Shown here one piece after another: positions 8,504-26,334 of a DNA stretch of 60,165 nucleotides (position 1 is its first letter; each line of letters begins with the position of its first letter). This DNA is from Escherichia phage vB_Eco_SLUR76. The stretch lies in the sequence record LR025195.1. One strand, given 5' to 3'. Under the pieces are notes generated by a model. The model made no database searches. It saw only the letters and a program-made list of their open reading frames with translations, and was not told the DNA's origin. The position numbers were made by a program, and so were the translations under genes.

Positions 8504-8544
8504 CCACATTAACGGGCGGTCAATCCGCCCAAGAGGAAACTAAA

Positions 8545-9336: not shown

Positions 9337-9347
9337 ACGGGGGAATA

Positions 9348-9578: not shown

Positions 9579-9582
9579 CTAT

Positions 9583-9608
9583 AAGGGGTCAACAGACCCC
9601 TTTTTATT
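9583..9608 (+). terminator. Rho-independent terminator
   Basis: Hairpin aaggggtc-aaca-gacccctt followed by ttttatt. Confidence 0.7.
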
Positions 9609-9619
9609 AAGGATAAACA

Positions 9620-11262: not shown

Positions 11263-11991
11263 ATGGCCATTGAAATTAAAATGTCTTCACAAGTTGTGCA
11301 GGACACAGGTGTTAAAATTCTGGTTTACGGTGAAGCAGGTATGGGTAAAACCAGCCTTGTAGCCACACTACCTAAACCAATTTTAATCAGCGCAGAATCC
11401 GGTCTGTTGTCTATTGCAGCGGAAAACCTTAACCGTGTTTATGGTAACATGGGTTTGCCCATCGTTTACGATATTCCGGTAATTGAAGTGAAATGTCTGG
11501 AAGACGTTGAAGCGGCTTATCAGTGGTGCGTAACTCCAGCTAACCAGCAGTATTTCGATTCTATTGCGCTTGACAGCTTGAGCGAAATTGCTGAACAATG
11601 TTTAAACAACGCGAAAAAGGGAACGAAAGATCCTCGTCAAGCTTATGGTACTTTGCTTGAAAAGATGCAAGATCTGATCCGTAAATTTCGCGATATTCCT
11701 GGCAAACATGTTTATATGTCTGCTAAAATGGGCAAAGACAAAGATGAAGTCTCCGGTGTTACCGCGTATGCTCCATCTATGCCTGGATCCAAATTGGGGC
11801 AAATGCTCCCTTACTTCTTCGACGAAGTATTTCGTCTGAATGTAAATAAGGATCAGCAAGGTAACTCGTATCGTTACTTGCAAACTCAACCGGACTTTAA
11901 TACAATCGCTAAGGATCGTTCGGGACGTTTAGATGCGGTTGAAGTCCCACACTTAGGTTCTGTTATCAACAAAATGAAAGGTATTAACTAA
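11263..11991 (+). CDS. RecA-like ATPase (Sak4-like recombination ATPase)
   Basis: Walker A GEAGMGKTS; about 240 aa, typical of phage Sak4-type ATPases. Confidence 0.6.
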   Translation: MAIEIKMSSQVVQDTGVKILVYGEAGMGKTSLVATLPKPILISAESGLLSIAAENLNRVYGNMGLPIVYDIPVIEVKCLEDVEAAYQWCVTPANQQYFDSIALDSLSEIAEQCLNNAKKGTKDPRQAYGTLLEKMQDLIRKFRDIPGKHVYMSAKMGKDKDEVSGVTAYAPSMPGSKLGQMLPYFFDEVFRLNVNKDQQGNSYRYLQTQPDFNTIAKDRSGRLDAVEVPHLGSVINKMKGIN

Positions 11992-12878
11992 TGACTATGC
12001 CAACTAATTTCCACTTTGACGCGAGCAGCTATCAAGCACCTTCTTACGGCGCATTGCCGAAAGGTTGGTATAAAGCAGTAATTGAAGCATCTGAATTTAA
12101 ACCGACCAAAAATGGCGGTATGGCGATCCAGGTAACGTTTAGCATCATTGATGGTTTTGCTAAAGGTCGTAAAATCTTTGCTCGTTACAACGTTATCAAC
12201 GACAACGAAGATACTGTGCGTATTGCATACGAACAACTGGGCGCGCTTTCCCATGCGGTTGGCGTAATTCGCTGGGATACTCCTGCTCAACTGCATAACA
12301 TTCCGCTGAACCTGCGTCTGAAAGTTCGTTCTCAGGAAGGTTATGAAGACAGCAACGAGCCTAACGGTTATGCTAACATCAACGATCCGGTTAAGTATGC
12401 AGAAAAAGAAGCAGGTGCTCCAGCAATGGGTGCTCAAGCGGCAGTAGCTAACCCGTTCGGTGCAGGTGCGCCAGCACAGCAGCCAGCTTTCCCGGGCGCA
12501 GCACCTCAGCAACCAGCAGCTAACCCGTTTGCACAGCAACAGCAAGCGCCTGTACAGCAGCAAGCTCCGGTGCAGCAACAGCAGCCAGTTCAGCAGCCTG
12601 TGCAGCAGCAACCAGCACCACAGCAGGGCGCAGCAGCACAACCGTGGCAGAATGCCGCACCGCAGCCGTGGGATAATCCTGCTCAAAACGCAGCACCACA
12701 GCAGCCAGTGCAGCAAGCTCCGGTACAGCAGCCAGTAGCACCGGATGCAGCCCAGCAGCCGTGGGCGCAGCAGGTAGCACAGCCGGGTCAGGCAGCAGCG
12801 CCTCAGCAGCAAGCTCAGCCGCAGCAGCAAGCTGAACCGCATCCAGCACAAGCAGCAGTCCCGCCGTGGCAGCAGTAA
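11991..12878 (+). CDS. Putative ssDNA-binding protein (DUF669-like) with Q/P/A-rich low-complexity C-terminal tail
   Basis: Position next to the Sak4-like ATPase; C-terminal 150 aa are QQQAPVQQ repeats. Confidence 0.45.
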   Translation: MTMPTNFHFDASSYQAPSYGALPKGWYKAVIEASEFKPTKNGGMAIQVTFSIIDGFAKGRKIFARYNVINDNEDTVRIAYEQLGALSHAVGVIRWDTPAQLHNIPLNLRLKVRSQEGYEDSNEPNGYANINDPVKYAEKEAGAPAMGAQAAVANPFGAGAPAQQPAFPGAAPQQPAANPFAQQQQAPVQQQAPVQQQQPVQQPVQQQPAPQQGAAAQPWQNAAPQPWDNPAQNAAPQQPVQQAPVQQPVAPDAAQQPWAQQVAQPGQAAAPQQQAQPQQQAEPHPAQAAVPPWQQ

Positions 12879-13853: not shown

Positions 13854-15830
13854 ATGCAACTCCGCGATTATCAACAGGAAGCAGTTTATAGCGTATTCCG
13901 CTATTTTGATGCTGAAAAGGGTAACGCGGGGAACCCTTTGATCCTGTTACCAACAGGGACAGGAAAATCGCTCGTTATCGCGGGGTTCCTCGATCTGCTT
14001 TACAAATGGTATCCAAACCAGCGCGTAATGATGTTAACTCACGTCAAAGAGTTAATTGCACAAAACTATGATAAATTAATGAAAGTCTGGCCCGAAGCGC
14101 CAGCAGGTATTTACAGCGCGGGTTTGAAGCGTAAAGAAGTCTACAATCTTATTACCTTTGCAGGGATTGCGTCCGTTGCTAAGCATCCGAAAAAGTTCGG
14201 CAAAGTTGATCTTATTTTTGTGGATGAAGCACACCTTATTAGTCCGCGTGATGCAACAATGTATAAGAAGTTCTTTGCAGCGTTGCGTGAAGTTAACCCG
14301 TATTTAAAAATCATCGGTCTTACCGCTACACCTTATCGACTGGGGTATGGTTCAATTGTTAAGGAAAACGAAGACGATGATGCGTTATTTGATAAGGTAA
14401 CGTTCGATGCAACTACTCCGGAAGCCTTCAACTGGTTCCTGGAGCAAGGTTATCTTCTTCCGGTTGTGCCAAAGCGTACTAAGATGGAACTGGACCTCAA
14501 CGGGGTAGGTAAACGCGGCGGTGAGTTTATCCAGAGTGAGCTGCAAAGTGCGGTAAACCGCGATGACGCAACACTCCGCGCACTTGAGGAAGCAATTGAA
14601 TGTGGTGAAGACCGTCAAAGCTGGCTTATATTTTGTTCTGGTATTGAACACGCTAAAGACGCCTGCGATATGCTGAACGATATGGGTATTAGCTGTGGAT
14701 GTATTCACTCTAAGCTTGATGCAAAAGAACGTGACGAGATTATTGAAAAGTTCAAGCGCGGTGAATTTCGTGCATTAACTAACAATAACGTCTTAACCAC
14801 AGGTTTTGATCATCCAATGCTTGACCTGATCATCATGCTCCGCCCTACTGCGTCGGCGGTGCTATGGGTTCAGATGCTGGGTCGCGGTACGCGTCCGGTA
14901 TACGCGGAGGGCTTTGATCTTTCCACGCAGGAGGGGCGCTTACAAGCTATTGCGGCAAGCCCTAAGCAGAACTGCCTTGTACTGGATTTCAGCGGTAATA
15001 CGCGCCGTTTGGGCCCTATTAACGACCCTGTTAAACCCAAGCGCCCGGGCGAAAAAGGTGCTGGTACTGCTCCGGTTAAAGAATGCGATGTATGTGGGTC
15101 GTATAATCATGCATCCGCTCGCTATTGCGGTGGCTTCGCACCAATCCCAATGGACAGCGTCACACAGGAACAAGTTCAACAATTATATCTGAAAGGATTT
15201 AGGCTACGCGGGACGGATTACGTTAAAGAAGGCTTTTGCGGTCATGAGTTTAAGTTCCAGACCAAACTCAAGAAAGCTGCAAGTACGGAAGCCCTGATCA
15301 AGCAGGATATTCCAGTAGTTGAAGACTTCAAAGTTACGCATGTTACTTATGCAAAGCATACTAAACGCAATGACAGCTCTAAACCTCCAACAATGAAGGT
15401 GACTTATTATTGCGGTAGTAAAATATTCAGTGAATGGGTAGCTCTGCTTCATGGGGACTGGGCAGGTCGTAAAGCTGTCGCATGGTGGAAGAAAAGGACA
15501 CATTTACCTTTACCACAAACTATTGAAGAAGCTCTTGATGTTGCTGCAATGCTTAAAACACCAAAATACATCAAAGTTCATACCAATAAGAAATGGCCTG
15601 AGATATTGAACTATGATTATGATGGTACTTGTTTCGGTAAGTTTGAAGCTCCACAGGACGACGAAGCAATTCAGGTTAAAGTATACGGTCAGGATGGAAC
15701 AACGGAAGGTCCAAGCTATAACGATGATGTAAGCTGGGACGATATTGTTTCGCAGAATACGCAAGGTATAACGGTGAACAATGTGGTTAACCCTGTACAA
15801 GTAGATGATCCTGATTACGTTCCGTTCTAA
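13854..15830 (+). CDS. Superfamily 2 DNA helicase (DEAH-type) with C-terminal zinc ribbon
   Basis: Walker A PTGTGKS, Walker B FVDEAH, helicase C motifs, CDVCGSYN...YCGG. Confidence 0.8.
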   Translation: MQLRDYQQEAVYSVFRYFDAEKGNAGNPLILLPTGTGKSLVIAGFLDLLYKWYPNQRVMMLTHVKELIAQNYDKLMKVWPEAPAGIYSAGLKRKEVYNLITFAGIASVAKHPKKFGKVDLIFVDEAHLISPRDATMYKKFFAALREVNPYLKIIGLTATPYRLGYGSIVKENEDDDALFDKVTFDATTPEAFNWFLEQGYLLPVVPKRTKMELDLNGVGKRGGEFIQSELQSAVNRDDATLRALEEAIECGEDRQSWLIFCSGIEHAKDACDMLNDMGISCGCIHSKLDAKERDEIIEKFKRGEFRALTNNNVLTTGFDHPMLDLIIMLRPTASAVLWVQMLGRGTRPVYAEGFDLSTQEGRLQAIAASPKQNCLVLDFSGNTRRLGPINDPVKPKRPGEKGAGTAPVKECDVCGSYNHASARYCGGFAPIPMDSVTQEQVQQLYLKGFRLRGTDYVKEGFCGHEFKFQTKLKKAASTEALIKQDIPVVEDFKVTHVTYAKHTKRNDSSKPPTMKVTYYCGSKIFSEWVALLHGDWAGRKAVAWWKKRTHLPLPQTIEEALDVAAMLKTPKYIKVHTNKKWPEILNYDYDGTCFGKFEAPQDDEAIQVKVYGQDGTTEGPSYNDDVSWDDIVSQNTQGITVNNVVNPVQVDDPDYVPF

Positions 15831-15845
15831 TTGACTTCAACATCT

Positions 15846-15868
15846 AATGCCCCTACTATTGGGGCATT
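15846..15868 (+). terminator. Rho-independent terminator
   Basis: Hairpin aatgcccc...ggggcatt with a T-rich tail. Confidence 0.55.
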
Positions 15869-15889
15869 ACTTATTTATAGGGGATTGCA

Positions 15890-16384
15890 ATGTACGTCCT
15901 AATTGATACAGATAAATTTGAACTCTTGGCAAAACATCCCAATTGGTTGACACTACACCAACTTGGAATTATCTGTTGCCCGGAGTCAACACTGGTAACA
16001 CCAGTAAACGATTTAAAAGATCTTGAAGATGTTGATCTTCAAATGCTTTATATTAACCTGACAGAAAACTTAGGAGCTGCACCATATGAACGGGAAATCG
16101 TTGAGCGCATTTTGTCTGATTACTTTACGCAACTTCCAGAAACAATCCTGGATCACACCCAAATTAGCGCACAAGCCGAATTCTGTGTGGAATATGATAT
16201 CCAGGGCTTTTGCTCGCCTCAACTTGGGCAATACGTACCGTCAATGGATGAAGGACTTTGGAAACCTGCCCGTGTCAAATACGATGCTGAACGGGAGGGT
16301 GGTATTATTTCCGGTGCCAGGGTCATTTGTGAGCAACCCGCATTGCAAGCAGCATGGACACCGGGCAGAGGTGCGAAGAGCTAA
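15890..16384 (+). CDS. Hypothetical protein
   Basis: 164-aa ORF. Confidence 0.55.
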   Translation: MYVLIDTDKFELLAKHPNWLTLHQLGIICCPESTLVTPVNDLKDLEDVDLQMLYINLTENLGAAPYEREIVERILSDYFTQLPETILDHTQISAQAEFCVEYDIQGFCSPQLGQYVPSMDEGLWKPARVKYDAEREGGIISGARVICEQPALQAAWTPGRGAKS

Positions 16385-16511
16385 TAAGTTCTAACCCTGA
16401 TCAAAAATATTTTTAAAAATGTTTATGTAAGGGGTTGCGTGTCACAAAATCCTTTGGTACATTTAACCCCGTTGGTAACAAACGAACCCATAATAATTCG
16501 GAGTGAAGAAA

Positions 16512-17315
16512 ATGAGTAATATTGAAGATAAGAAAGCCGCTGCTGCCGCAGCCGCTGCTGCCGCTGCAAAATCTGCTAAGACTGCAAAGAAAGAAGCTAC
16601 TGCTAACGACGCAGAAGCTAAAAAAGCCGCTGCCGCTGAAGCTGCACGCGTAGCAAAAGAGAAAAAAGAAGCAGAGAAAAAAGCTGCCGCTGAAAAGAAA
16701 CAAGCTGAAATTCGTATTGAAGCGGAAAATAAATTTACCGCTCTTTCCCAGGCAGTTGAAACCGTGAAGTTTGCTTTATCCGGTATTACCGATGAAAGCA
16801 CTGTTGAACAGATTACGGAAGCAGAATCTAAGGGTTCCGAACAGCTGAAGCATTTAAAGAATGCTCTGAAAGAGCTGAAAGCAGTTGTTAAAAAATCCAA
16901 AGGTGAAGATCTGTCCGGTGCAGTAACTGCTGCTCAGAGCATGGTCGACGAACTGGATTCGTCTATCAAAGGCTTCAAAGACAAGATCCGCGCTGCTAAA
17001 CAGGCTGAAAAGGCTGCTGAAAAAGCCCGCGAAAAAGCTGAACGTGAAAAAGCGAAAGAAGCGAACCGTATGCCTGAACAGAATGGTGTTCGTCGTCCGC
17101 AACCGGAAACTTCCTGCGGTCGTGCCTGGGCTCTGATGGATCAGATTAGCGCTACGCTGGGTCAGCCTGCTCCGATCTCTTATGTTCTGAATCTGGCTGG
17201 TCGCCACGGTCTGAACGAAGATACTGTTAAAACTCAGTATGCGCGTTGGAAGAAGTTTAATGGTGTGACTGGTCGCGTACCTATGCCAGTACCGGAAGCC
17301 CTGAACGGCTTGTAA
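16512..17315 (+). CDS. Lys/Ala/Glu-rich histone-H1-like protein with structured C-terminal domain
   Basis: RBS ggag; the N-terminal 170 aa are low-complexity KAAAEKK repeats. Confidence 0.55.
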   Translation: MSNIEDKKAAAAAAAAAAAKSAKTAKKEATANDAEAKKAAAAEAARVAKEKKEAEKKAAAEKKQAEIRIEAENKFTALSQAVETVKFALSGITDESTVEQITEAESKGSEQLKHLKNALKELKAVVKKSKGEDLSGAVTAAQSMVDELDSSIKGFKDKIRAAKQAEKAAEKAREKAEREKAKEANRMPEQNGVRRPQPETSCGRAWALMDQISATLGQPAPISYVLNLAGRHGLNEDTVKTQYARWKKFNGVTGRVPMPVPEALNGL

Positions 17316-17340
17316 TATCAAAACATATCACGTTATAATG

Positions 17341-17369
17341 AAAGCGCCCAATGAGGCGCTTTCTTTTTC
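17341..17369 (+). terminator. Rho-independent terminator
   Basis: Hairpin aaagcgcc-caatga-ggcgcttt followed by ctttttc. Confidence 0.7.
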
Positions 17370-17384
17370 ACTAGAGGATTTAAG

Positions 17385-18092
17385 ATGAATATTAATCAAC
17401 AAGCTCCCGAGTCCCGTTCTAAAGAAAACGATATGTATTTAGACGTGCATTCGGTATTCTCTACCATTCAGGGTGAAGGTCCATTCTGCGGCCAACCTGC
17501 TGTATTTGTGCGTCTTGCTGGGTGTAATCTGCAATGCCCTGGCTGTGATACCGATTATACTGTTGGTCGTAGTCTTTATCATATTGTCGATATTATGCGT
17601 TTAATCGAAAGCCGTAAGCTGGAATCAGGTAATAGCACCTCACTTGTGGTTATCACTGGGGGTGAACCGTTCCGTCAGCAAATTAACCCGTTTATTGAAC
17701 AACTGTTATCGCGCGGCTATTTGGTGCAAATTGAAACTAATGGGTCTATGCCTTTACCTAAGAACTTTTCCCAGTTACCTATAATTGTATGTAGTCCCAA
17801 GACCTCAAAGATTCATCCTTCTGTGCTGCGCCGCGCTAATGCATTTAAATATGTACTTAAAGCGTGCTGTGTAAACGTGGAAGATGGTTTACCTCTTCAA
17901 GCATTAGATCATCAAGCTACGCCATTTATCGCTAGACCTCCGAAGGGTTTCAAGGGTAAGATATATTTACAGCCAATGGACGAGCAGGATGAAGACCTTA
18001 ACCACAGTAATATCCAAGCCGTTGTCCAAAGCTGTATGAAACACGGTTACACGTTGCAGCTTCAGGTTCACAAATATATCGGAGTGGAATAA
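17385..18092 (+). CDS. queE: 7-carboxy-7-deazaguanine synthase QueE (radical SAM)
   Basis: Radical-SAM cysteine motif CNLQCPGC and QGEGPF; QueE length. Confidence 0.8.
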   Translation: MNINQQAPESRSKENDMYLDVHSVFSTIQGEGPFCGQPAVFVRLAGCNLQCPGCDTDYTVGRSLYHIVDIMRLIESRKLESGNSTSLVVITGGEPFRQQINPFIEQLLSRGYLVQIETNGSMPLPKNFSQLPIIVCSPKTSKIHPSVLRRANAFKYVLKACCVNVEDGLPLQALDHQATPFIARPPKGFKGKIYLQPMDEQDEDLNHSNIQAVVQSCMKHGYTLQLQVHKYIGVE

Positions 18093-18346
18093 TGCGTGTG
18101 CTAAGCCAGGTTGTGCATACTAAAGATGTTAATTTTTGTGGTGTCACTTTAACCGTTCCAAGTCGAGTTGATTATCTGGCATCCGACAAGGATGGGAAGG
18201 TTTGGGGATATGAAGCAATTCCTCCAGAACTTAGCCATCGCTTTGATAGATGGTTGCCCGCAGATCCGGAAGCTTACGAGTACGATGAAATAGCTGATGT
18301 AGATCTTGAAGGCTTAGACTGGACTCAAACATTAACGGAGGTTTAA
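18092..18346 (+). CDS. Hypothetical protein (inside the deazaguanine island)
   Basis: Translationally coupled ORF between queE and queC. Confidence 0.5.
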   Translation: MRVLSQVVHTKDVNFCGVTLTVPSRVDYLASDKDGKVWGYEAIPPELSHRFDRWLPADPEAYEYDEIADVDLEGLDWTQTLTEV

Positions 18347-18559
18347 ATGATCACTTTGGAAGAAGCGAAACAGCATCAGGAAATGATCACTGAACTGGTA
18401 GAAAAACTTAATTCTTCAATTGCCCACGCTACTATGCAGGGCGTGCATGTAGAATTAGATATTAATTACGTTAGCACAATTGGAGCGCGCAATCACCCAA
18501 TTGTAATGTCTAACGTAACAATTAACCCTTGTGATATTAAAGGTGAAGTAAATGAATAA
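18347..18559 (+). CDS. Hypothetical protein (inside the deazaguanine island)
   Basis: Coupled ORF; overlaps the queC start. Confidence 0.5.
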   Translation: MITLEEAKQHQEMITELVEKLNSSIAHATMQGVHVELDINYVSTIGARNHPIVMSNVTINPCDIKGEVNE

Positions 18560-19259
18560 ATTAGATAAACTGGTATTCCCTGTAAAAAATCATAACTCCG
18601 CCGTTGTCGTCCTGTCTGGCGGCCAGGACAGCGTGACCTGTTTGGGTCTTGCACTTAATAACTATGATAAGGTCTACGCTATTGGTTTTGCATACGGTCA
18701 ACGTCATAACATTGAGCTGGCTTGTGCTAATCAAATTTGTAAAGAGCACGATGTCCCGTTTGTTGTCTTTGAATTACCTGCTTTGAAACAAATTGGCAAT
18801 AGCGCTTTAATCGGGAACGAAGGTGATGTTAACGAACATCACGAACAGCACAACAACCTTCCGGCAAGCTTTGTGCCCAACCGTAATGCTCTTTTCCTGA
18901 CTACCGCGCACGCCTACGCGCAGAAGGTTGGCGCGCGATATGTGGTTACGGGCGTCTGTGAAACGGACTATAGCGGTTATCCGGATTGCCGCCAGCAGTT
19001 TGTAGATTTGCTTGAAGCTACGTTAAACGTTGGATATGAAACAGATATCCATTTTGTTACTCCGCTTATGCGTTTAAACAAAGCGGAAACGTTTGAGCTG
19101 GCGGATAAGGTTGGTTTCTTAACCACAGTAATTGAGCAGTCCCATACGTGCTATAATGGCGTCCGTCGTACTCTGCATGACTGGGGATACGGTTGCGGGG
19201 AATGTCCAGCGTGTAAACTTCGTGCTAAAGGGTACAGCGAATTTATTAGCAAAGCTTGA
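18552..19259 (+). CDS. queC: 7-cyano-7-deazaguanine (preQ0) synthase QueC
   Basis: PP-loop SGGQDS and C-terminal zinc-binding cysteines CYNG...CGECPAC. Confidence 0.85.
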   Translation: MNKLDKLVFPVKNHNSAVVVLSGGQDSVTCLGLALNNYDKVYAIGFAYGQRHNIELACANQICKEHDVPFVVFELPALKQIGNSALIGNEGDVNEHHEQHNNLPASFVPNRNALFLTTAHAYAQKVGARYVVTGVCETDYSGYPDCRQQFVDLLEATLNVGYETDIHFVTPLMRLNKAETFELADKVGFLTTVIEQSHTCYNGVRRTLHDWGYGCGECPACKLRAKGYSEFISKA

Positions 19260-19379
19260 TCTTACCGCGAAAACCGCACCGCTAGCACATTGTTTAGGGT
19301 GCGGTAACCCAACTATACTACTAAAGATTTTAAACCCAACAACCAGCGAATAACGCTGTTAAAACTGGAGAACAAAAGT

Positions 19380-19859
19380 ATGAAATTTATCGTTGCTTAT
19401 CTGGCTGCAATTACATTCGTAAACCTGGGCTTTTCCTACCTTCCGATGCTTAATACGCCACTTGGCGTAGTCCCCATGATGGCTTTCTTTGTAGGCATTA
19501 TCTTTGTTCTGCGTGATTACGCACAGCGTAACGCTGGCAAAGGCGTCATCCCTGCAATGATTGTTGGTTGCATCCTTAGCTGGGTGTTCGGTAATCCTGC
19601 GGTTGTAGTTGCATCCGTTGCGTCTTTTGCGCTTAGTGAGTTTGCGGACTATGTAGTATACACGGTCACCAAGAAGCCTTTCCATCAACGAGTATTTATC
19701 AGCTCTTTGGTAGCTGTACCAATTGACTCCATTGTGTTCTTAAGTATTATAGGTATTGTTAATCCGGGATCGATGGTAGCAATGAGCTTAAGTAAGTTCA
19801 CAGCGTCTGCTATCCTTTGGGTTGTTTACGAAGTTCATTCACGTACAGCGAGAGCGTAA
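19380..19859 (+). CDS. Small polytopic membrane protein, YhhQ/DUF165-like queuosine-precursor transporter candidate
   Basis: Four or more predicted TM helices; VLRDYAQRNAGKG and FALSEFADYVVY resemble conserved YhhQ segments; sits within the que cluster. Confidence 0.4.
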   Translation: MKFIVAYLAAITFVNLGFSYLPMLNTPLGVVPMMAFFVGIIFVLRDYAQRNAGKGVIPAMIVGCILSWVFGNPAVVVASVASFALSEFADYVVYTVTKKPFHQRVFISSLVAVPIDSIVFLSIIGIVNPGSMVAMSLSKFTASAILWVVYEVHSRTARA

Positions 19860-19861
19860 AA

Positions 19862-20452
19862 ATGAAAGATAATTTGAATAAAATTTGGCACCAACACGAC
19901 GGTAAAGGAATGCCTATTTTTCTTCGTAATGAGAAGTTTGAAGTTCGTTTGCGCAACGGCACACACGTTAAGAATCTATTACATGGATGGGATTGGGCTA
20001 TGGAAGGGCGTTCAGCTATGGATGAAAATAGCCCTTATAAAGTTCAAGATATTATAGCCTGGCGCTATATCGTTGCGGATGATTACGTCAAACAGGCTAG
20101 CGAAAACACTCGCTCCGGATTGTACAATCAACCTTCTTCTGGAATAAGCATAAGTAATACATTTAATGGTGCGGTTTTTACGAAATACGAACCGTCTAAA
20201 ATTCCCATGAATAAATATCAGAAAGTTATTTATGGTAAAGATCAAAATGGGAATGTTGTAAAATGCATCGTGGACGTGTATGATGTCTTGGAAGCTTGGA
20301 AGACAACTAACCCAGCTTTACAACATTTGATTAAAAAGGCGTTGCAGCCTGGCGAACGCGGTCATAAGCATGTGGTAGAAGATTTGAAAGACATTATTGC
20401 GTCGGCGCAGCGTGCGTTAGAAATTGAACAGTCTAAAGAGGTATTAAAATGA
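19862..20452 (+). CDS. Hypothetical protein (inside the deazaguanine island)
   Basis: 197-aa ORF coupled between the transporter-like gene and queD; no recognisable motif. Confidence 0.55.
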   Translation: MKDNLNKIWHQHDGKGMPIFLRNEKFEVRLRNGTHVKNLLHGWDWAMEGRSAMDENSPYKVQDIIAWRYIVADDYVKQASENTRSGLYNQPSSGISISNTFNGAVFTKYEPSKIPMNKYQKVIYGKDQNGNVVKCIVDVYDVLEAWKTTNPALQHLIKKALQPGERGHKHVVEDLKDIIASAQRALEIEQSKEVLK

Positions 20453-20985
20453 GTTATACAGTAATTCGTTCACATGAAATTTGCGCTGGACATCGTGTTG
20501 TAGGGCATGAAAGCAAGTGTCGTCACCTTCACGGTCACAACTATAAGTTTCACTTTAAGGTTGCGCCGAAAGAAACAGTTAAAGAAGTACCAATTGAAAT
20601 GGGCGGAGGTCTTGTCAACGTCGAAGTAAAAGAGCGCGCTAAGCTGGACCATGTGGGCCGAGTTATCGACTTTAGTGTGGTTAAAACTACGCTCTGCCAG
20701 TGGCTGGAAGATAATTGGGATCATAAGTTCCTGCATTGGAATCGTGATAATTTGATTGACGCTTTGAAAATTGCAGCAAGTCGCCCGAGTTGTCCTCTGG
20801 AACATGAAGACCATGAGCATTTCTTAAGCTCATTGGTAGCTTTACCATTCAACCCAACTGCGGAAAACTTAGCTGCATATATGGTTGACGTGATTGGTCC
20901 GCAACTGCTTGACGAACATGGTGTTCAACTTGTAGAATGCACCATCGAAGAAACTTCGAAATGTCACGTAAACTATAGCCTGTAA
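20449..20985 (+). CDS. queD: 6-carboxy-5,6,7,8-tetrahydropterin synthase QueD
   Basis: QueD/PTPS motifs CAGHR and HGHNY; ATGA start-stop overlap. Confidence 0.85.
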
Positions 20986-20986
20986 T

Positions 20987-21625
20987 ATGACCACATTAAC
21001 AAGGAAACTGCAAACCATGCCAAAATTTACTATTGATAACGAAGGTACTCAATTCCGTATTGCTCGCGCGGTGCATACTTTACTAACTCAGATTGAAGAT
21101 TGCATTGAATTACGTCCAGGATTAGCAGAGACTCCAGACCGTGTCGCTAAAGCTTATGCTACATGGTTTAGCGGTTACGATGTAGATATCGCTGGTCTGT
21201 TTAAAACCTTTGAGGATGGGGCGGAAAACACCAATGAAATGGTCATTGTCCGTGATATCCCTGTATATAGTCATTGTGAGCATCACATGGCTCCTATCAT
21301 CGGTCATGCTGTCGTGGGTTATGTCCCCAATGGGAAGATCGTTGGGCTTAGTAAGCTGTCTCGCGTTGTGGATGCTTTTAGTCGTCGACTGCAAGTTCAG
21401 GAACGTCTTACTAACCAGATTGCAGACGCTATTCAGGAGCATTTAAACCCGAAAGCTGTATGTGTTTATATTGACGCCAAGCATATGTGCATGGAGTCAC
21501 GCGGTGTTAAGCAGGTATGCGGCAGCTCTACTATTACTAAAGCATTCCGTGGGGCTACCGCTAACCGTGGAGATGGAACAATTGGTGCTGTTTGGCGCCG
21601 GGAGTTCCTTGAAGCTTGTAAATAA
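20987..21625 (+). CDS. folE: GTP cyclohydrolase I FolE
   Basis: FolE signature SHCEHH, GLSKLSR and RLQVQERLT. Confidence 0.9.
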
Positions 21626-21643
21626 TAGATAGCTTTACAGATC

Positions 21644-21680
21644 AAGCCCATATCGGTCATAATACTGGTATGGGCTTTTT
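21644..21680 (+). terminator. Rho-independent terminator
   Basis: Hairpin agcccata...tatgggct followed by ttttt. Confidence 0.6.
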
Positions 21681-21696
21681 AGTCATTGGGGGAAAT

Positions 21697-21903
21697 ATGT
21701 CAAGACAATTAATTTTAGAAGCTGCATTCTACAAGCTTAAAGCAGGTACTGCGGATGCTTGCTCTGCAATACAGAATGATGCGCCTACAAATGTCTTAAA
21801 GCAGCAGCTTATTAACGCTAAACATCAAGCGGACGAAGCATTTAATAATGCATGGCGCACCTTAGAACTAATTGATCAGTTTGGAGGACCATTCCAAAAA
21901 TGA
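21697..21903 (+). CDS. Hypothetical protein
   Basis: ATG after RBS gggggaaat; the upstream ATG of the track ORF lies inside the terminator hairpin. Confidence 0.45.
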   Translation: MSRQLILEAAFYKLKAGTADACSAIQNDAPTNVLKQQLINAKHQADEAFNNAWRTLELIDQFGGPFQK

Positions 21904-22820
21904 ACGTTTTTATGGCAGCAGTTTACACAAACGGATATATGCCTGGCCAGCAGCGTTATGAAAAGCTGTCTGAGCATGAGAAAAATATCACGCGCAATCT
22001 GCCCCATATTTTGGAATCATACCACTACGTTGGACGTCAAAAGTATGTTGATCAGATGCGTGCGGACGGGGCTAAAGTGTTTCTCGACTCCGGTGCATTC
22101 TCCGCGCACTCTTTGGGTGCTCACATTGATATTGTCGAATACTGCGAATACATTAAGCGCAACAAAGACATCCTTCGCGTAGAAGATGGCGCAGTAATGG
22201 CGTCAGTGCTCGATGGCATCGGTGATCCGTTGCAAACCTACCGTAACCAGCTTGAAATGGAAGCACGCGGAGCTAAACCGTTACCTTGCTTTCACTTTGG
22301 TGAAGACTTCCGCTATCTTGAATACTACATGAAGAACTACGAATATATCACCATTGGAGGCATGGTAGGGCGTTCCACAGACACGCTTAAAACTTGGCTT
22401 GACCGCATGTGGGACAAATATATTTGCGATGGTAGCGGACGTGCTAAGATTAAGCTTCATGCGTTTGGTATTACGTCAACAACCATTATGGAGCGTTATC
22501 CGTGGTATAGCTGTGACTCATCCTCCTGGATTCAAGCGGCAGCGTTTGGAAGTGTGGTTACCCCTCCGTGGGGACCAATGCGCGTATCAGATAAGTCACC
22601 GGACCGCCATCATTTTGGTAAGCATGTTTCAACATTAACTGAAATTGAACAAGACGCTGTCCTTAAATACCTTGAGCAAAACGGTTTCACTTACGAACGT
22701 TTATCAACAATCTATGAATCACGTGCTGCCTTCAACTTATGGGCGTATGGTGTAATTGCTGCAAACATTAACGCCACCCATGACGGCACATTCCGTGATC
22801 GTGTGATGGAGTTGTTCTGA
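21900..22820 (+). CDS. dpdA: DpdA-like 7-deazaguanine DNA transglycosylase (tRNA-guanine transglycosylase superfamily)
   Basis: TGT-like motif FLDSGAF; located immediately downstream of folE, queD, queC and queE. Confidence 0.6.
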   Translation: MNVFMAAVYTNGYMPGQQRYEKLSEHEKNITRNLPHILESYHYVGRQKYVDQMRADGAKVFLDSGAFSAHSLGAHIDIVEYCEYIKRNKDILRVEDGAVMASVLDGIGDPLQTYRNQLEMEARGAKPLPCFHFGEDFRYLEYYMKNYEYITIGGMVGRSTDTLKTWLDRMWDKYICDGSGRAKIKLHAFGITSTTIMERYPWYSCDSSSWIQAAAFGSVVTPPWGPMRVSDKSPDRHHFGKHVSTLTEIEQDAVLKYLEQNGFTYERLSTIYESRAAFNLWAYGVIAANINATHDGTFRDRVMELF

Positions 22821-23047
22821 TGGCTAACTTAAGAAGACCAAAAGGTAGACGTAAATATACTCACACAGGCGTAAGAATTAATTATTACGGTGAAAACAGA
22901 GTAGTATTTCTCCACAAGACACCTAAGCAGTGGCAGGATCCGTCAGGCACATGGTTTAATGCACAAGGAAAACAAATGGGGCTTTATGGATACCCTCCAA
23001 CCTGTGAATTAGATTTAACCACAATTAGAGCAATCGAGGACCGCTAA
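22820..23047 (+). CDS. Hypothetical protein
   Basis: TGATG-coupled small ORF. Confidence 0.5.
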   Translation: MANLRRPKGRRKYTHTGVRINYYGENRVVFLHKTPKQWQDPSGTWFNAQGKQMGLYGYPPTCELDLTTIRAIEDR

Positions 23048-24000
23048 TGTTAGACGCTCTTAAATTTGTTCAAGGCTCCGTCGCTAAAAAGGAACTGGTA
23101 GAAGGGCTTACCAGCTTTCTTATCCGTGATGGACAGGTACAGGGCTTTAACGGTGTTATTGCACTGGGTAGCCCTATTGAGCTGGATATTGATTGCAAGC
23201 CCGAAGCTGGACCTATGATTAAAGCTATTTCAAACTGTGACGAAACCGTACAGTTAACAATGATGGCTAACGGTAAACTTAATATCAAGTCCGGACCATT
23301 TCGTGTTGCTATACGCTGCATTGACAAGGAAACGCCTCACGTATTCCCGGAAGGGGAGTTATACGAAATAGACGGTGCTCGCTTCGTACACGGTGTGAAG
23401 TCCGTTGCTCCGTTTGTAGGCTCAGATGCATCCCGCCCGTGGGCTTGCGGTATTCTGATTAATAACGGTAGCTTGTTTGCTACAAATAACGTCACCATTG
23501 CCGAATATTGGTTTGGTAATCAATTCCCTATTGACTGCATAATACCGTCTGTTGCTATTAAAGAAATACTGCGCATTAAAGCTAACCCGACACATATTCA
23601 GGTTAGCAAGAACAATGTGACGTTTCATTATCCGGAAGGTCGCTGGTTGCGAACACAGCTTATTGATGCGGAGTGGCCTGATATACGTCGTATTTTAAAT
23701 GTTCAATGCAATGCACATCCTGTTGATCCAGGTCTTTTTGAGGGTTTGCATAAAATTAAACCTTTTGCAGAAGATCGTCCTCGCGTATATATTGAAAACG
23801 GTCTAGCGCGTACCCATTATGACGATGCGGAAGGTGCAAGCTTCGTATTACAGGACCGCACAATAACGGGAGTGTACAATATTGACGTCCTGTTATTACT
23901 CGAAAATGTGGTTAAGACTGCGGACTTTAGTTTATATCCGCAACCTTGCGCATTCTTTGGGGAAAATCTTCGCGGTGTGTTAATTGGAGAACGTGTCTAA
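23047..24000 (+). CDS. Hypothetical protein (possible polymerase accessory or modification-associated protein)
   Basis: 317-aa ORF coupled TAATG to the upstream gene and ending on the polymerase start. Confidence 0.55.
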   Translation: MLDALKFVQGSVAKKELVEGLTSFLIRDGQVQGFNGVIALGSPIELDIDCKPEAGPMIKAISNCDETVQLTMMANGKLNIKSGPFRVAIRCIDKETPHVFPEGELYEIDGARFVHGVKSVAPFVGSDASRPWACGILINNGSLFATNNVTIAEYWFGNQFPIDCIIPSVAIKEILRIKANPTHIQVSKNNVTFHYPEGRWLRTQLIDAEWPDIRRILNVQCNAHPVDPGLFEGLHKIKPFAEDRPRVYIENGLARTHYDDAEGASFVLQDRTITGVYNIDVLLLLENVVKTADFSLYPQPCAFFGENLRGVLIGERV

Positions 24001-25985
24001 TGCGGACAGATGCTATTGGTTTCTTTTGGCAGGACTTACCGCCTGAGCCAAAAGCAAAGAAAGAAAAAGTTAAACGTTTACCGCCGGAGCGCACTTGGGA
24101 GCGCCCGGATTATTTGCCTAACCTTGAGGAAGCGCGGAACTTCCAATACAACCTGTATACACAGGATGAACTTATTCAAGCATGGATTAACCGCGAACCG
24201 CTTGTATACGATATCGAATGTTATCCAAACTATTTCTTAATTGCATTTCGCGGAGTACGAACTAAGAAAGTTGTCTACTTCGAGATGTATCACGGTTGTA
24301 GTTTGAATTGCTTGCTACTTAACTGGGTAATGACAAACTTCCTTATCGTGAGCTTTAACGGTAATGGGTACGATATGTCCATTGCTACGCTTGCGCTTAA
24401 CGGCTGCTCTAATGCTCAGCTTAAAGACGCAACTGATAAAATAATCGTTGAAGACTGGCGTCCTTCGGATGTATTGAAGAGTTACCGTCTCAAGCGTATG
24501 CAGAACGTTAACCACATCGATATTATGGAAGTGCTGCCTGGGTCCGGTGGTTTGAAACAATATGGCGGACGTGTACATACTCGTCGTATGCAGGATTTAC
24601 CGTTCAAGCCCAATACAATGTTGACGCAAGACCAGATGCTTATTGTGCGCTGGTACTGTATTAACGACCTTGTACAGACGGAAGAATGTTTTATTGCATT
24701 ACAAGAGCCTATTCACTTGCGTGAAATTATGTCGCAAGAGTACGGTGTGGACCTGCGTTCACGCTCCGATGCACAGATTGCAGAAGACGTGATTAAGCAC
24801 GAAATTCAAGCGTTAACGGGCGTGCGCCCACAGCGTCCGCAAGTTTATCCTGGAACAAAGTATGCATACAACATACCGGACTTTATTCGTTTTCAAACAC
24901 CTTTGATGAATAGTGTTCTGGATATTGTTCGGGACTGTCGCTTTATTGTTAGCGATAACGGTGGTGTCAGCTTACCTCCAGCATTAACAGGTCTTGAGAT
25001 CAAGATTGCAGACGGTGTCTACCGTATGGGTATTGGTGGTTTACATAGCTCCGAAGAGTGCGCTGGCCACGGTAAAGAGCCTGGTATCAAAAAGCGGGAC
25101 ATTGACGTAACGTCTTATTATCCTTCAATCATTCTTAATCAGGGCTTATATCCAGAACAGTTGGGACCAGCGTTCCTTCGTGTTTATAAGAGTATTGTAG
25201 ATCGTCGTATTGCAGCTAAGCACTCAGGGGATAAGAACACAGCCAACACGCTGAAGATCGTTATCAACGGATCGTTCGGTAAGTTGGGGTCCATGTGGTC
25301 TGTACTGTACGCGCCCCAATTATTGATACAAGTTACATTAACCGGACAGCTTTCACTGTTGATGCTTATTGAAGCGTTTGAGCTGAACGGTGTTAAAGTA
25401 ATTTCAGCCAACACGGATGGTATTGTGGTCAAGTATCCGGACCATATGCAGGACTTCGTTGATAATATGATCAAGTGGTGGGAATCCGTAACAGGTTTTG
25501 AAATGGAATCCAACTACTATGACAAGCTGTACAGTGCTAACGTCAATAACTATGTTGCCGTAAAAGAACCTGACGAGGAAGGAAATGTTGAAATTAAACG
25601 TAAAGGCTGGTTCGCAAAGACAGGTCTTCAAAAGAACTGTACTGGTGAGATCATTATGGAAGCTGTATGCGAATGTTTGGCCCACGGTACGCCTGTTTCT
25701 CGTACTATACGCAATTGCAACGATATTAGAAAATTCATTATCCTACGTGCGGTAAAAGGCGGCGCGGTATGGAATGGCGAATTTTTGGGTAAGGTTGTAC
25801 GCTGGTACTTAAGCACTAATGAAGAAACACCTGAAATAATCTATGCTAACACGGGCAACCGTGTAGCTGGTAGCGCGGGAGGTGTTCCGATCATGACGCT
25901 ACCGGATAAAGTGCCGGACGACATAGATTATGATGCTTATATAGCTAAAGCAGAGAAGTATCTCGAAGACATGGGATACGCCTAA
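24000..25985 (+). CDS. DNA polymerase with 3'-5' exonuclease domain, family-B-type motifs
   Basis: Exo I YDIE; Pol motif A DVTSYYPSII; motif B KIVINGSFGKLG; motif C ANTDGIVV. Confidence 0.75.
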   Translation: MRTDAIGFFWQDLPPEPKAKKEKVKRLPPERTWERPDYLPNLEEARNFQYNLYTQDELIQAWINREPLVYDIECYPNYFLIAFRGVRTKKVVYFEMYHGCSLNCLLLNWVMTNFLIVSFNGNGYDMSIATLALNGCSNAQLKDATDKIIVEDWRPSDVLKSYRLKRMQNVNHIDIMEVLPGSGGLKQYGGRVHTRRMQDLPFKPNTMLTQDQMLIVRWYCINDLVQTEECFIALQEPIHLREIMSQEYGVDLRSRSDAQIAEDVIKHEIQALTGVRPQRPQVYPGTKYAYNIPDFIRFQTPLMNSVLDIVRDCRFIVSDNGGVSLPPALTGLEIKIADGVYRMGIGGLHSSEECAGHGKEPGIKKRDIDVTSYYPSIILNQGLYPEQLGPAFLRVYKSIVDRRIAAKHSGDKNTANTLKIVINGSFGKLGSMWSVLYAPQLLIQVTLTGQLSLLMLIEAFELNGVKVISANTDGIVVKYPDHMQDFVDNMIKWWESVTGFEMESNYYDKLYSANVNNYVAVKEPDEEGNVEIKRKGWFAKTGLQKNCTGEIIMEAVCECLAHGTPVSRTIRNCNDIRKFIILRAVKGGAVWNGEFLGKVVRWYLSTNEETPEIIYANTGNRVAGSAGGVPIMTLPDKVPDDIDYDAYIAKAEKYLEDMGYA

Positions 25986-25994
25986 ATTCTACTT

Positions 25995-26018
25995 GCAGAC
26001 CCTTCGCGGGTCTGTTTT
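25995..26018 (+). terminator. Rho-independent terminator
   Basis: Hairpin gcagaccc-ttcg-cgggtctg followed by tttt. Confidence 0.65.
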
Positions 26019-26049
26019 AATATATGCATACAACAAGAGGAGATACAAA

Positions 26050-26334
26050 ATGAGCTTAGTAGACGATTACAATAAAGGTAAAATCGACGCGGTAGAACTT
26101 AACCGTCAGCTTAATAAACAAAATGAAGAACGCAAACAAGGTAAGTACCTTACAATGATTGTTGCGCTTATCTTCACTCTTATTGGTGGATGTGTTTACG
26201 GCTACATTAACCACACTGTTGAAGTCGGCAACGAATGTCGCGCTAAATATCCAATTCACGTTGGTGTAACTCCACAGGAAGACATTGATGCGCTTCTGGA
26301 ACTTCAAGCCTTATGTCGTAAAGGGAAAGCATAA
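26050..26334 (+). CDS. Small membrane protein
   Basis: RBS agaggaga; one TM segment LTMIVALIFTLIGGCVYGYI. Confidence 0.5.
   Translation: MSLVDDYNKGKIDAVELNRQLNKQNEERKQGKYLTMIVALIFTLIGGCVYGYINHTVEVGNECRAKYPIHVGVTPQEDIDALLELQALCRKGKA

What the first reader, a model, noticed from the sequence alone, without database searches (positions are those of the whole stretch)
17385..22820. 7-deazaguanine DNA hypermodification island (queE, queC, YhhQ-like, queD, folE, dpdA-like)
A contiguous + strand block encodes the full GTP-to-preQ0 pathway: FolE (SHCEHH), QueD (CAGHR/HGHNY), QueE (radical SAM CNLQCPGC) and QueC (SGGQDS PP-loop). It also encodes a TGT-superfamily protein with the DSGAF motif, which is the hallmark of phages that swap guanine in their own DNA for a 7-deazaguanine base to evade restriction. 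No amidotransferase (Gat-QueC/ArcS-type) and no QueF-like reductase is recognisable, so the predicted base is dPreQ0 rather than archaeosine-type or preQ1-type. That prediction depends on the unassigned ORFs in the island having no such activity.
Basis: partly seen in the sequence, partly recalled or inferred. Interest (0 to 1): 0.75.

Follow-up and report, generated by a model that had tools for sequence, protein, structure and literature searches.

The report
Known phage dPreQ0 DNA-modification gene cluster

Summary
The window is the complete genome of Escherichia phage vB_Eco_SLUR26 (LR025198.1, 100% identity; Queuovirinae, Seuratvirus). Sazinas et al. 2017 already described its queCDE/folE genes.

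DpdA is 100% identical to DpdA of the Seuratvirus CAjan. QueE is 99.6% identical, the YhhQ-like protein 99.4% and QueC 97.4%. In CAjan, LC-MS/MS found dPreQ0 as the only 7-deazaguanine (about 70,600 per 10^6 nt), a dpdA deletion abolished it, and nanopore mapping placed it on G in GA and GGC.

QueC here is stand-alone. No Gat domain, QueF, ArcS or methyl/formyl-transferase was found in the rest of the genome. GA and GGC contexts hold 28.4% of the window's G (about 63,200 per 10^6 nt), matching CAjan.

The dPreQ0 prediction is therefore supported, with three corrections:
- Replacement is partial and motif-specific.
- DpdA is invisible to the Pfam TGT model and scores far below cut-off on the NCBIfam DpdA model. 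Only fold-level similarity to archaeosine TGT supports superfamily membership.
- The YhhQ assignment is borderline.

Novelty: already known.

The parts
17385..18092 (+). QueE, 7-carboxy-7-deazaguanine synthase (radical SAM, C47xxxCxxC)
   Evidence: The best NCBIfam hits are five QueE models (E = 7e-28 to 2e-20), all below their equivalog cut-offs. phrog_2076 gives E = 1e-68. It is 99.6% identical to CAjan QueE and 63% to 9g QueE; 9g QueE complemented an E. coli queE mutant (PMC6884629).
18092..18346 (+). orf84, small unassigned ORF; probably not part of the pathway
   Evidence: It has no Pfam or NCBIfam hit and falls in phrog_1972, function unknown. It is absent from CAjan. Homologues occur in jumbo phages and Klebsiella siphoviruses, which to my knowledge lack deazaguanine genes, and next to QueE in a Nonagvirus.
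18347..18559 (+). orf70, small unassigned ORF (orthologue of CAjan gp44)
   Evidence: It is 92.9% identical to CAjan gp44. phrog_26258 is labelled 'radical SAM domain-containing', but the protein is 70 aa with one Cys and no Pfam hit, so the label looks like annotation carry-over.
18552..19259 (+). QueC, 7-cyano-7-deazaguanine (preQ0) synthase; stand-alone, no Gat domain
   Evidence: PF06508 scores 251 bits and TIGR00364 scores 243 bits against a cut-off of 150. It is 97.4% identical to CAjan QueC. It aligns only to residues 241-457 of the 471-aa 9g Gat-QueC, at 28.6%.
19380..19859 (+). Short VUT/YhhQ-like membrane protein (putative preQ0 transporter)
   Evidence: PF02592 scores 26.5 bits against a cut-off of 27.2, and TIGR00697 scores 22.8 against 50.95. 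Of 108 homologues, many carry a precomputed PF02592 domain and some are named queuosine precursor transporter. Hydropathy shows several TM-like segments. It is 99.4% identical to CAjan gp41.
19862..20452 (+). orf196, unassigned two-domain protein (divergent orthologue of CAjan gp40)
   Evidence: It is 53.5% identical to CAjan gp40. Its C-terminal 80 aa recur in 694 phage records, in phage groups that to my knowledge mostly lack deazaguanine genes. The AF2 model has pLDDT 63.8 and no significant Foldseek PDB match.
20449..20985 (+). QueD, 6-carboxy-5,6,7,8-tetrahydropterin synthase
   Evidence: PF01242 scores 79 bits against a cut-off of 22. The C24xHxHGH motif is present. It is 73% identical to CAjan QueD and 72% to 9g QueD. 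The differences sit in two internal patches.
21017..21625 (+). FolE, GTP cyclohydrolase I (the ORF also has an upstream ATG at 20987)
   Evidence: PF01227 scores 214 bits and TIGR00063 scores 194 bits against a cut-off of 182. It is 86% identical to CAjan FolE and 82% to 9g FolE. The weak QueF hit (25 bits, below cut-off) reflects the T-fold the two families are known to share.
21697..21903 (+). orf68, small unassigned ORF overlapping the dpdA start by 4 nt
   Evidence: It is 95.6% identical to CAjan gp36 and falls in phrog_20065, function unknown. No counterpart is annotated in 9g.
21900..22820 (+). DpdA (DpdA1-type DNA guanine transglycosylase), which inserts preQ0 into DNA
   Evidence: It is 100% identical to CAjan DpdA and 69% to 9g DpdA. 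D63, S64, F67, D105, H132, G153, G154, F189 and D206 are all present. Foldseek's best PDB hits are archaeosine TGT 1j2b/1iq8. There is no CxCxxC zinc motif.
   Evidence: It is 98.7% identical to CAjan gp34 and has no Pfam hit. Its start overlaps the dpdA stop and its stop overlaps the clamp gene start.

Best explanation
The block is the Seuratvirus-type dPreQ0 DNA-modification module of Escherichia phage vB_Eco_SLUR26.

Proposed mechanism:
1. FolE converts GTP to dihydroneopterin triphosphate.
2. QueD makes 6-carboxytetrahydropterin.
3. The radical-SAM enzyme QueE makes 7-carboxy-7-deazaguanine.
4. The stand-alone QueC converts that, via the amide, to 7-cyano-7-deazaguanine (preQ0).
5. After replication, DpdA, a zinc-less TIM-barrel relative of archaeosine tRNA-guanine transglycosylase, flips out G in GA and GGC contexts of phage DNA. 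Asp206 excises the base as nucleophile, and preQ0 is inserted with Asp63 as the general base.

About 28% of all G (roughly 63,000 per 10^6 nt) would become dPreQ0. This blunts type I and II restriction.

The short VUT/YhhQ-like protein probably imports or retains preQ0. That role is inferred, not shown. The small ORFs have no assigned role.

Shown here: gene content, identities, motifs, the absence of a Gat domain, of any other domain for onward modification and of QueF (only FolE's sub-threshold T-fold hit), and the motif census. Taken from experiments on CAjan and 9g: the chemistry, the dpdA and queC dependence, and the GA/GGC specificity. Inferred: that SLUR26 virion DNA itself carries dPreQ0.
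For: - The window is LR025198.1 at 100% identity, genus Seuratvirus.
- Identities to CAjan are DpdA 100%, QueE 99.6%, YhhQ-like 99.4%, QueC 97.4%, FolE 86% and QueD 73%.
- CAjan carries 70,628 dPreQ0 per 10^6 nt, other deazaguanines are below 6 per 10^6, and a dpdA deletion abolishes the modification (PMC6884629, read).
- A CAjan queC deletion lowers dPreQ0 12-fold, and the modification lies at GA and GGC (PMC7544227).
- The active-site residues mapped in that paper are all present here.
- 9g folE, queD and queE complemented E. coli mutants. The window's orthologues are 82%, 72% and 63% identical to them.
- The Gat half of 9g Gat-QueC has no match anywhere in the window by tblastn at E <= 0.01.
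- A Pfam scan of 61 non-structural CDS outside the island found no QueF, GATase, ArcS or methyl/formyl-transferase.
- GA plus GGC contexts hold 7,606 of 26,754 G, which is 28.4%. The CAjan figure is 23.96% + 4.28% (PMC10484667).
- BASEL Seuratviruses resist type I and II restriction in vivo (PMC8594841).
Against: - No chemical measurement exists for SLUR26 itself.
- QueD, FolE and orf196 differ from CAjan in localised patches.
- orf84 has no CAjan counterpart, and CAjan gp39 and gp43 are missing here. The accessory gene sets are therefore not identical.
- DpdA's TGT-superfamily membership rests on a medium-confidence model (pLDDT 68.7) with moderate TM-scores of about 0.47. No sequence HMM supports it.
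- The libraries used have no dedicated models for DpdL, DpdM or DpdN.
Confidence: 0.93

Rival explanations
1. The genes act on tRNA rather than DNA. The phage boosts host queuosine-precursor supply, and the TGT-like protein modifies tRNA.
For: This was one alternative discussed when the SLUR phages were described (PMC5758909). Some phages carry preQ0 genes without DpdA (PMC6884629).
Against: - The identical DpdA in CAjan is required for DNA dPreQ0.
- 9g dpdA did not complement an E. coli tgt mutant.
- The protein lacks the TGT CxCxxC zinc motif and is only 306 aa, against 576 residues for arcTGT chain 1j2b_A.
Confidence: 0.02
2. The inserted base is not dPreQ0 but a derivative (dADG, dG+, dPreQ1 or another), made by one of the unassigned ORFs or by a host enzyme.
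For: Five ORFs in and next to the island have no assigned function. orf84 is absent from CAjan and orf196 is only 53.5% identical to CAjan gp40. DpdL, DpdM and DpdN lack models in the libraries searched.
Against: - CAjan, which has orthologues of four of the five ORFs, contains dPreQ0 only.
- orf84 (84 aa) and the orf196 C-terminal domain occur widely in phage groups that to my knowledge lack deazaguanine genes.
- orf196 shows no fold match to an amidotransferase or nitrile reductase.
- There is no Gat domain. The only QueF signal in the genes scanned is FolE's own sub-threshold T-fold hit.
- QueC passes the QueC equivalog cut-off.
Confidence: 0.04
3. The cluster is present but inactive in this isolate, for example because the divergent QueD and FolE patches impair the pathway. 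The DNA would then be unmodified, or modified only with host-made preQ0 at low level.
For: QueD is 73% and FolE 86% identical to CAjan, with localised divergent patches. A CAjan queC mutant still receives about 8% of wild-type dPreQ0 from host preQ0.
Against: - All ORFs are intact and catalytic motifs are conserved.
- The divergent patches lie outside those motifs, and the QueD and FolE HMM scores remain high.
- The same alleles recur at 92-98% nucleotide identity in many independent Seuratvirus isolates.
Confidence: 0.02

Closest known systems
Escherichia phage CAjan (Seuratvirus) dPreQ0 system: FolE, QueD, QueE, QueC, DpdA and a putative YhhQ
   Same: - The gene order is the same: queE, small ORFs, queC, yhhQ-like, gp40-like, queD, folE, small ORF, dpdA, small ORF, clamp, polymerase.
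- DpdA is 100% identical, QueE 99.6%, YhhQ-like 99.4% and QueC 97.4%.
- The share of G in GA plus GGC contexts is about 28% in both.
   Different: - QueD (73%), FolE (86%) and orf196/gp40 (53.5%) carry divergent patches.
- CAjan gp39 (107 aa) and gp43 (62 aa) are absent here.
- orf84 takes gp43's position.
- SLUR26 DNA has not been analysed chemically.
Enterobacteria phage 9g (Nonagvirus) dG+ (2'-deoxyarchaeosine) system
   Same: - Same subfamily, Queuovirinae, and the same core order queE, queC, queD, folE, dpdA followed by clamp and polymerase.
- Identities are DpdA 69%, FolE 82%, QueD 72% and QueE 63%.
   Different: - 9g has a 471-aa Gat-QueC fusion that yields dG+. Here QueC is 235 aa, and no Gat domain exists anywhere in the genome.
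- 9g has no annotated YhhQ-like gene, orf68 or orf75 in the cluster.
Pseudomonas phage iggy (Queuovirinae) dPreQ0 system
   Same: Same pathway, same gene order and same product, dPreQ0. Relatives of iggy such as PBPA162 have DpdA about 72% identical to the window's (PMC10484667).
   Different: - Iggy DpdA targets GA only, about 16.5% of G. The CAjan/SLUR26 enzyme also targets GGC.
- Iggy QueC is unrelated at the 30% threshold.
- That paper notes yhhQ for CAjan only.
Bacterial Dpd restriction-modification island (DpdA/DpdB/DpdC, Salmonella Montevideo type)
   Same: It uses a DpdA transglycosylase to put preQ0 into DNA. This rests on my own knowledge of Thiaville et al. 2016, which is cited in PMC5758909.
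   Different: - The NCBIfam bacterial DpdA model scores only 16.9 bits against a cut-off of 200.
- The window has no DpdB or DpdC and no restriction genes.
- The bacterial product is largely dADG (my own knowledge).
- The phage enzyme belongs to the separate DpdA1 subfamily (PMC10516641 abstract).
Archaeosine tRNA-guanine transglycosylase (arcTGT, PDB 1IQ8/1J2B)
   Same: These are the best structural matches to the DpdA model. Two catalytic aspartates and the preQ0 pocket are conserved according to the published CAjan model.
   Different: - Sequence identity is 13-15%.
- DpdA has no Pfam TGT hit, no zinc motif and no C-terminal tRNA-binding domains.
- Its substrate is dsDNA, not tRNA.

Membership tests
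Phage dPreQ0 DNA-modification system (FolE + QueD + QueE + QueC + DpdA; Seuratvirus/CAjan type) | Complete GTP-to-preQ0 pathway: FolE, QueD, QueE and QueC | tested here: met
   - FolE: TIGR00063, 194 bits against a cut-off of 182.
- QueC: TIGR00364, 243 bits against 150.
- QueD: PF01242, 79 bits against 22.
- QueE: the top five NCBIfam hits are all QueE models but below their cut-offs; phrog_2076 E = 1e-68; 99.6% identical to CAjan QueE.
- Catalytic motifs are present.
Phage dPreQ0 DNA-modification system (FolE + QueD + QueE + QueC + DpdA; Seuratvirus/CAjan type) | A DpdA1-type DNA transglycosylase | tested here: met
   It is 100% identical over 306 aa to CAjan DpdA, whose deletion abolishes dPreQ0 (PMC6884629).
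Phage dPreQ0 DNA-modification system (FolE + QueD + QueE + QueC + DpdA; Seuratvirus/CAjan type) | No enzyme that converts preQ0 or CDG onward (Gat-QueC, ArcS, QueF/QueF-L, DpdL/M/N) | tested here: met
   - tblastn with 9g Gat-QueC matches only its QueC half.
- Pfam scans of the island ORFs and of 61 other CDS found no GATase, ArcS or methyl/formyl-transferase, and no QueF apart from FolE's own sub-threshold T-fold hit.
- Caveat: the libraries used have no dedicated DpdL, DpdM or DpdN models, and structural genes were not scanned.
Phage dPreQ0 DNA-modification system (FolE + QueD + QueE + QueC + DpdA; Seuratvirus/CAjan type) | dPreQ0 actually present in virion DNA at GA/GGC | not testable with these tools
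   Only a prediction is possible. 28.4% of G lie in GA or GGC contexts, about 63,200 per 10^6 nt. CAjan was measured at 70,628 per 10^6 nt.
tRNA-guanine transglycosylase superfamily (Pfam TGT, PF01702) | Significant match to the family sequence profile | tested here: not met
   There is no Pfam hit at E <= 10. NCBIfam DpdA (NF041059) scores 16.9 bits against a cut-off of 200. There is no PDB sequence hit at E <= 10.
tRNA-guanine transglycosylase superfamily (Pfam TGT, PF01702) | TGT-like (beta/alpha)8 barrel fold with two catalytic aspartates | tested here: met
   - The AF2 model has pLDDT 68.7, with the core at 80-93.
- Foldseek's top PDB hits are arcTGT 1j2b_A (E = 1.3e-4, probability 1.00, TM 0.47) and 1iq8_A, followed by bacterial and murine TGTs mixed with generic TIM barrels.
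- D63 and D206 are invariant in 45 homologues.
- Support is moderate and agrees with the published homology model.
tRNA-guanine transglycosylase superfamily (Pfam TGT, PF01702) | Structural zinc site (CxCxxC...H) of tRNA-specific TGTs | tested here: not met
The only cysteines are at positions 82, 130, 176 and 205, and there is no CxCxxC pattern.
VUT / YhhQ queuosine-precursor transporter family (PF02592, TIGR00697, COG1738) | Match to the family profile above the curated cut-off | tested here: inconclusive
   - PF02592 scores 26.5 bits against a cut-off of 27.2, and TIGR00697 scores 22.8 against 50.95.
- Many of the 108 homologues, including the 97%-identical cluster representative, carry a precomputed PF02592 domain.
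- The protein is 159 aa; the more distant, source-named queuosine precursor transporters are about 190 aa.
VUT / YhhQ queuosine-precursor transporter family (PF02592, TIGR00697, COG1738) | preQ0 transport activity | not testable with these tools
   Testing it needs a preQ0-uptake complementation assay in an E. coli queD yhhQ background.
Nonagvirus-type dG+ (archaeosine) DNA-modification system | [quoted passage not shown] | tested here: not met
   QueC is 235 aa and aligns only to residues 241-457 of 9g Gat-QueC. Residues 1-240 have no tblastn match anywhere in the window.

The most novel reading that the evidence does not exclude
The accessory genes, which nobody has tested, may be working parts of the system. 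The 159-aa VUT/YhhQ-like protein could be a minimal preQ0 importer or retention device. It would let the phage top up its own synthesis, for example with preQ0 released from lysed neighbours. The small ORFs whose coding sequences overlap dpdA (orf68, orf75), present in Seuratvirus but not annotated in 9g, could tune DpdA's dual GA/GGC specificity. The patchy divergence of QueD, FolE and orf196 between SLUR26 and CAjan could also reflect selection rather than drift.
Probability: 0.15. Interest if true: 0.35.

Novelty: already known. Interest (0 to 1): 0.1.

Why it matters
7-Deazaguanine hypermodification is a real and interesting anti-restriction strategy, but this instance adds nothing new.

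- The phage and its queCDE/folE genes were published in 2017.
- The chemistry (dPreQ0), the dpdA and queC dependence, the GA/GGC target motifs and the in-vivo restriction phenotype were established for the genus between 2019 and 2021, using an enzyme identical to the one encoded here.

The practical value is in three points:
- A sequence-only reader reached the correct, published conclusion.
- Standard Pfam and NCBIfam profiles fail to recognise phage DpdA1.
- The accessory ORFs and the short YhhQ-like protein remain untested.

Tried and rejected
- **Loci not readable in scripts.** Loci L002 and L003 were not available to scripts. I passed their proteins through an alignment file instead.
- **Pfam at E <= 10.** A scan of the unassigned ORFs and DpdA returned only noise-level hits.
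- **PDB sequence search with DpdA.** It returned zero hits at E <= 10.
- **orf196 structure.** The model had low confidence (pLDDT 63.8, pTM 0.36), and Foldseek against the PDB gave nothing with E < 0.6. No function is assigned. I recalled a possible resemblance of its C-terminal domain to DUF3310, but no Pfam hit supports it, so I dropped the idea.
- **Promoter scan.** Sigma-70-like sites in 15800-26200 were not above chance, 19 against 20.6 expected. No promoter is claimed, and I mention only two terminator-like hairpins.
- **FolE as a hidden QueF.** I considered whether FolE's weak QueF hits (25-30 bits, below cut-off) might hide a QueF. I rejected this because FolE models score about 200 bits on the same region and the two families are known to share the T-fold.
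- **SLUR26 in earlier surveys.** I searched the Hutinet 2019 supplements for SLUR26. Only slur01 and SLUR25 are listed.

Full report
**Identity of the window.** A megablast of 17385-22820 against the phage collection gives a 100% match over the full length to LR025198.1. That record is Escherichia phage vB_Eco_SLUR26, 60,165 bp, the same length as the window, offset by 2 nt. The record is classified Caudoviricetes; Queuovirinae; Seuratvirus. SLUR26 is one of the 14 cattle-slurry phages described by Sazinas et al. 2017 (PMC5758909). That paper already reported that all Seuratviruses carry queC, queD, queE and folE and lack gat-queC. It proposed that they modify their DNA to evade restriction.

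**Observation check.** The + strand carries, in order:

| Gene | Coordinates |
|---|---|
| QueE | 17385-18092 |
| orf84 | 18092-18346 |
| orf70 | 18347-18559 |
| QueC | 18552-19259 |
| YhhQ-like protein | 19380-19859 |
| orf196 | 19862-20452 |
| QueD | 20449-20985 |
| FolE | 21017-21625 (an upstream ATG lies at 20987) |
| orf68 | 21697-21903 |
| DpdA | 21900-22820 |
| orf75 | 22820-23047 |

The sliding-clamp and DNA-polymerase genes follow directly. Most gene junctions overlap by 1-8 nt or abut. Terminator-like hairpins at 17340-17363 and 25995-26015 bracket the whole QueE-to-polymerase block. Promoter-like sites are not above chance.

- QueC, FolE and QueD pass curated cut-offs.
- QueE's best NCBIfam hits are five QueE models, all below their strict equivalog cut-offs. 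Its PHROG match has E = 1e-68.
- DpdA is recognised only by PHROGs (phrog_887, E = 8e-96). It has no Pfam hit at E <= 10, scores 16.9 bits against 200 on NCBIfam DpdA, and has no sequence-level PDB hit.
- The YhhQ-like ORF is just under the Pfam cut-off (26.5 against 27.2 bits). Many of its 108 homologues carry PF02592, and some are named queuosine precursor transporter by their sources. It has several hydrophobic TM-like segments.

**Comparison with the experimentally characterised relatives.** I compared the window's proteins with CAjan (NC_028776) and 9g (NC_024146).

| Window protein | Identity to CAjan | Identity to 9g |
|---|---|---|
| DpdA | 100% (306/306) | 69% |
| QueE | 99.6% | 63% |
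| YhhQ-like | 99.4% | no annotated counterpart |
| orf75 | 98.7% | no annotated counterpart |
| QueC | 97.4% | 28.6%, to residues 241-457 of the 471-aa Gat-QueC only |
| orf68 | 95.6% | no annotated counterpart |
| orf70 | 92.9% | no match |
| FolE | 85.9% | 82% |
| QueD | 73.2% | 72% |
| orf196 (CAjan gp40) | 53.5% | C-terminal 80 aa only (9g gp07, 50%) |

The Gat half of 9g Gat-QueC has no tblastn match anywhere in the window. A nucleotide alignment shows that the lower QueD, FolE and orf196 identities come from localised divergent patches. It also shows that CAjan gp39 is a 324-bp insertion absent here. orf84 occupies the position of CAjan gp43.

**What the literature shows for the identical enzyme.**

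- Hutinet et al. 2019 (PMC6884629) measured 70,628 +/- 2,445 dPreQ0 per 10^6 nt in CAjan. dADG, dG+, dPreQ1 and dQ were below 6 per 10^6 nt. A dpdA deletion removed all modification.
- 9g folE, queD and queE complemented E. coli mutants. 9g dpdA did not complement tgt.
- Kot et al. 2020 (PMC7544227) showed that a queC deletion lowers dPreQ0 12-fold and that the modified G lies in GA and GGC.
- Kot et al. also modelled CAjan DpdA on arcTGT. The pocket residues are Ser64, Phe67, Asp105, His132, Gly153, Gly154 and Phe189, the nucleophile is Asp206 and the general base is Asp63. All of these are present here, and D63 and D206 are invariant in 45 homologues.
- Maffei et al. 2021 (PMC8594841) describe dPreQ0 as the signature of Seuratvirus. 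They found these phages resistant to type I and II restriction-modification systems but sensitive to type III systems.

**Own tests of the interpretation.**

1. Fold. An AF2 model of DpdA (pLDDT 68.7, barrel core 80-93) finds archaeosine TGT 1j2b_A (E = 1.3e-4, probability 1.00) and 1iq8_A as the best PDB matches. Other TGTs follow, mixed with generic TIM barrels. This is moderate support for TGT-superfamily membership, in line with the published model.
2. Zinc site. The only cysteines are at 82, 130, 176 and 205, and there is no CxCxxC motif.
3. Onward-modifying enzymes. Pfam scans of the island ORFs and of 61 non-structural CDS elsewhere found replication, recombination, dUTPase, HNH, holin and SLOG domains. 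They found no GATase, ArcS, methyltransferase or formyltransferase, and no QueF apart from FolE's own sub-threshold hit. That hit reflects the T-fold the two families are known to share.
4. Unassigned ORFs. orf84 homologues occur in jumbo phages and Klebsiella siphoviruses (which to my knowledge lack deazaguanine genes) and next to QueE in a Nonagvirus. The conserved C-terminal domain of orf196 occurs in 694 phage records, in phage groups that to my knowledge mostly lack deazaguanine genes. Its model found no fold match. None of these looks like a base-modifying enzyme.
5. Quantitative prediction. 6,529 G lie in GA and 1,077 in GGC, out of 26,754 G on both strands. That is 28.4%, or about 63,200 per 10^6 nt. 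CAjan has 23.96% + 4.28% (PMC10484667), and its measured level agrees.

**Verdict.** The block is the Seuratvirus dPreQ0 DNA-modification module, and the mechanism is as in the best explanation: five enzymes, with post-replicative base exchange at GA and GGC.

- Replacement is partial and motif-specific.
- Standard HMMs do not recognise DpdA.
- The YhhQ assignment is borderline, and transport is unproven.
- The functional block may include orf75, just beyond the stated end.

The only step not shown is the chemistry of SLUR26 DNA itself. The finding is already known, so interest is low. The open questions concern the untested accessory ORFs and the short VUT protein.

Noticed in passing
whole window (both strands): The EcoKI recognition site AACN6GTGC is completely absent. 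Dinucleotide-preserving shuffles give 8.6 +/- 2.9. This suggests restriction-site avoidance on top of the base modification.
   Followed up: partly
window 12477-12875 (+), inside CDS 11991-12878: Seventeen CAGCAG hexamers cluster here; the whole window has 64 against 29 expected. They encode a Q/P/A-rich low-complexity C-terminal tail; the Pfam scan of this gene set includes one DUF669 match, which I attribute to this CDS. The tract coincides with the local GC bump to 0.50 at 12-14 kb.
   Followed up: partly
window 55575-55967 (-): This gene is annotated 'phosphoribosyl transferase' in GenBank. It actually matches PF10686, the YAcAr (YspA/cpYpsA-related) SLOG family, at 65 bits. It is a nucleotide-binding or nucleotide-processing domain of unknown role in this phage.
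   Followed up: partly
window 18347-18559 (+): orf70 belongs to phrog_26258, and its CAjan orthologue gp44 is annotated 'radical SAM domain-containing protein'. The protein is only 70 aa, has a single Cys and has no Pfam hit. The label looks like carry-over from the adjacent QueE.
   Followed up: partly
window 20210-20449 (+), C-terminal 80 aa of orf196: This is a highly conserved domain (VDVYDVLxAWxxxNPALQHLIKKALQPGERGHK...) fused to variable N-termini. It occurs in 694 phage records from Salmonella, Escherichia, Klebsiella, Vibrio and Aeromonas phages. It has no Pfam family and no structural match.
   Followed up: partly
window 19862-21200 versus L002 (CAjan) 8000-10100: The island is mosaic relative to CAjan. 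DpdA, QueE, QueC and YhhQ-like are near-identical. Divergent patches lie inside QueD (two internal segments), in the FolE N-terminus and a C-terminal patch, and in the orf196 N-domain. CAjan also has a 324-bp extra gene, gp39.
   Followed up: partly
window 17340-17363 (+) and 25995-26015 (+): Two strong terminator-like hairpins (9 and 8 bp stems followed by T-runs) bracket a co-directional, mostly overlapping block from queE to the DNA polymerase gene. This suggests the modification genes are co-transcribed with the replication genes.
   Followed up: no
window about 28000: GC skew changes sign near 28 kb. This coincides with the switch from + strand early and replication genes to - strand tail, head and lysis genes. 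It matches the bidirectional genome layout described for Queuovirinae.
   Followed up: no
window 350-679 (-) and 53272-53763 (-): GenBank annotates two free-standing endonuclease genes, an HNH endonuclease and a homing endonuclease. A Pfam HNH_3 hit (E = 8e-20) occurs in the scanned set that includes the second gene.
   Followed up: no
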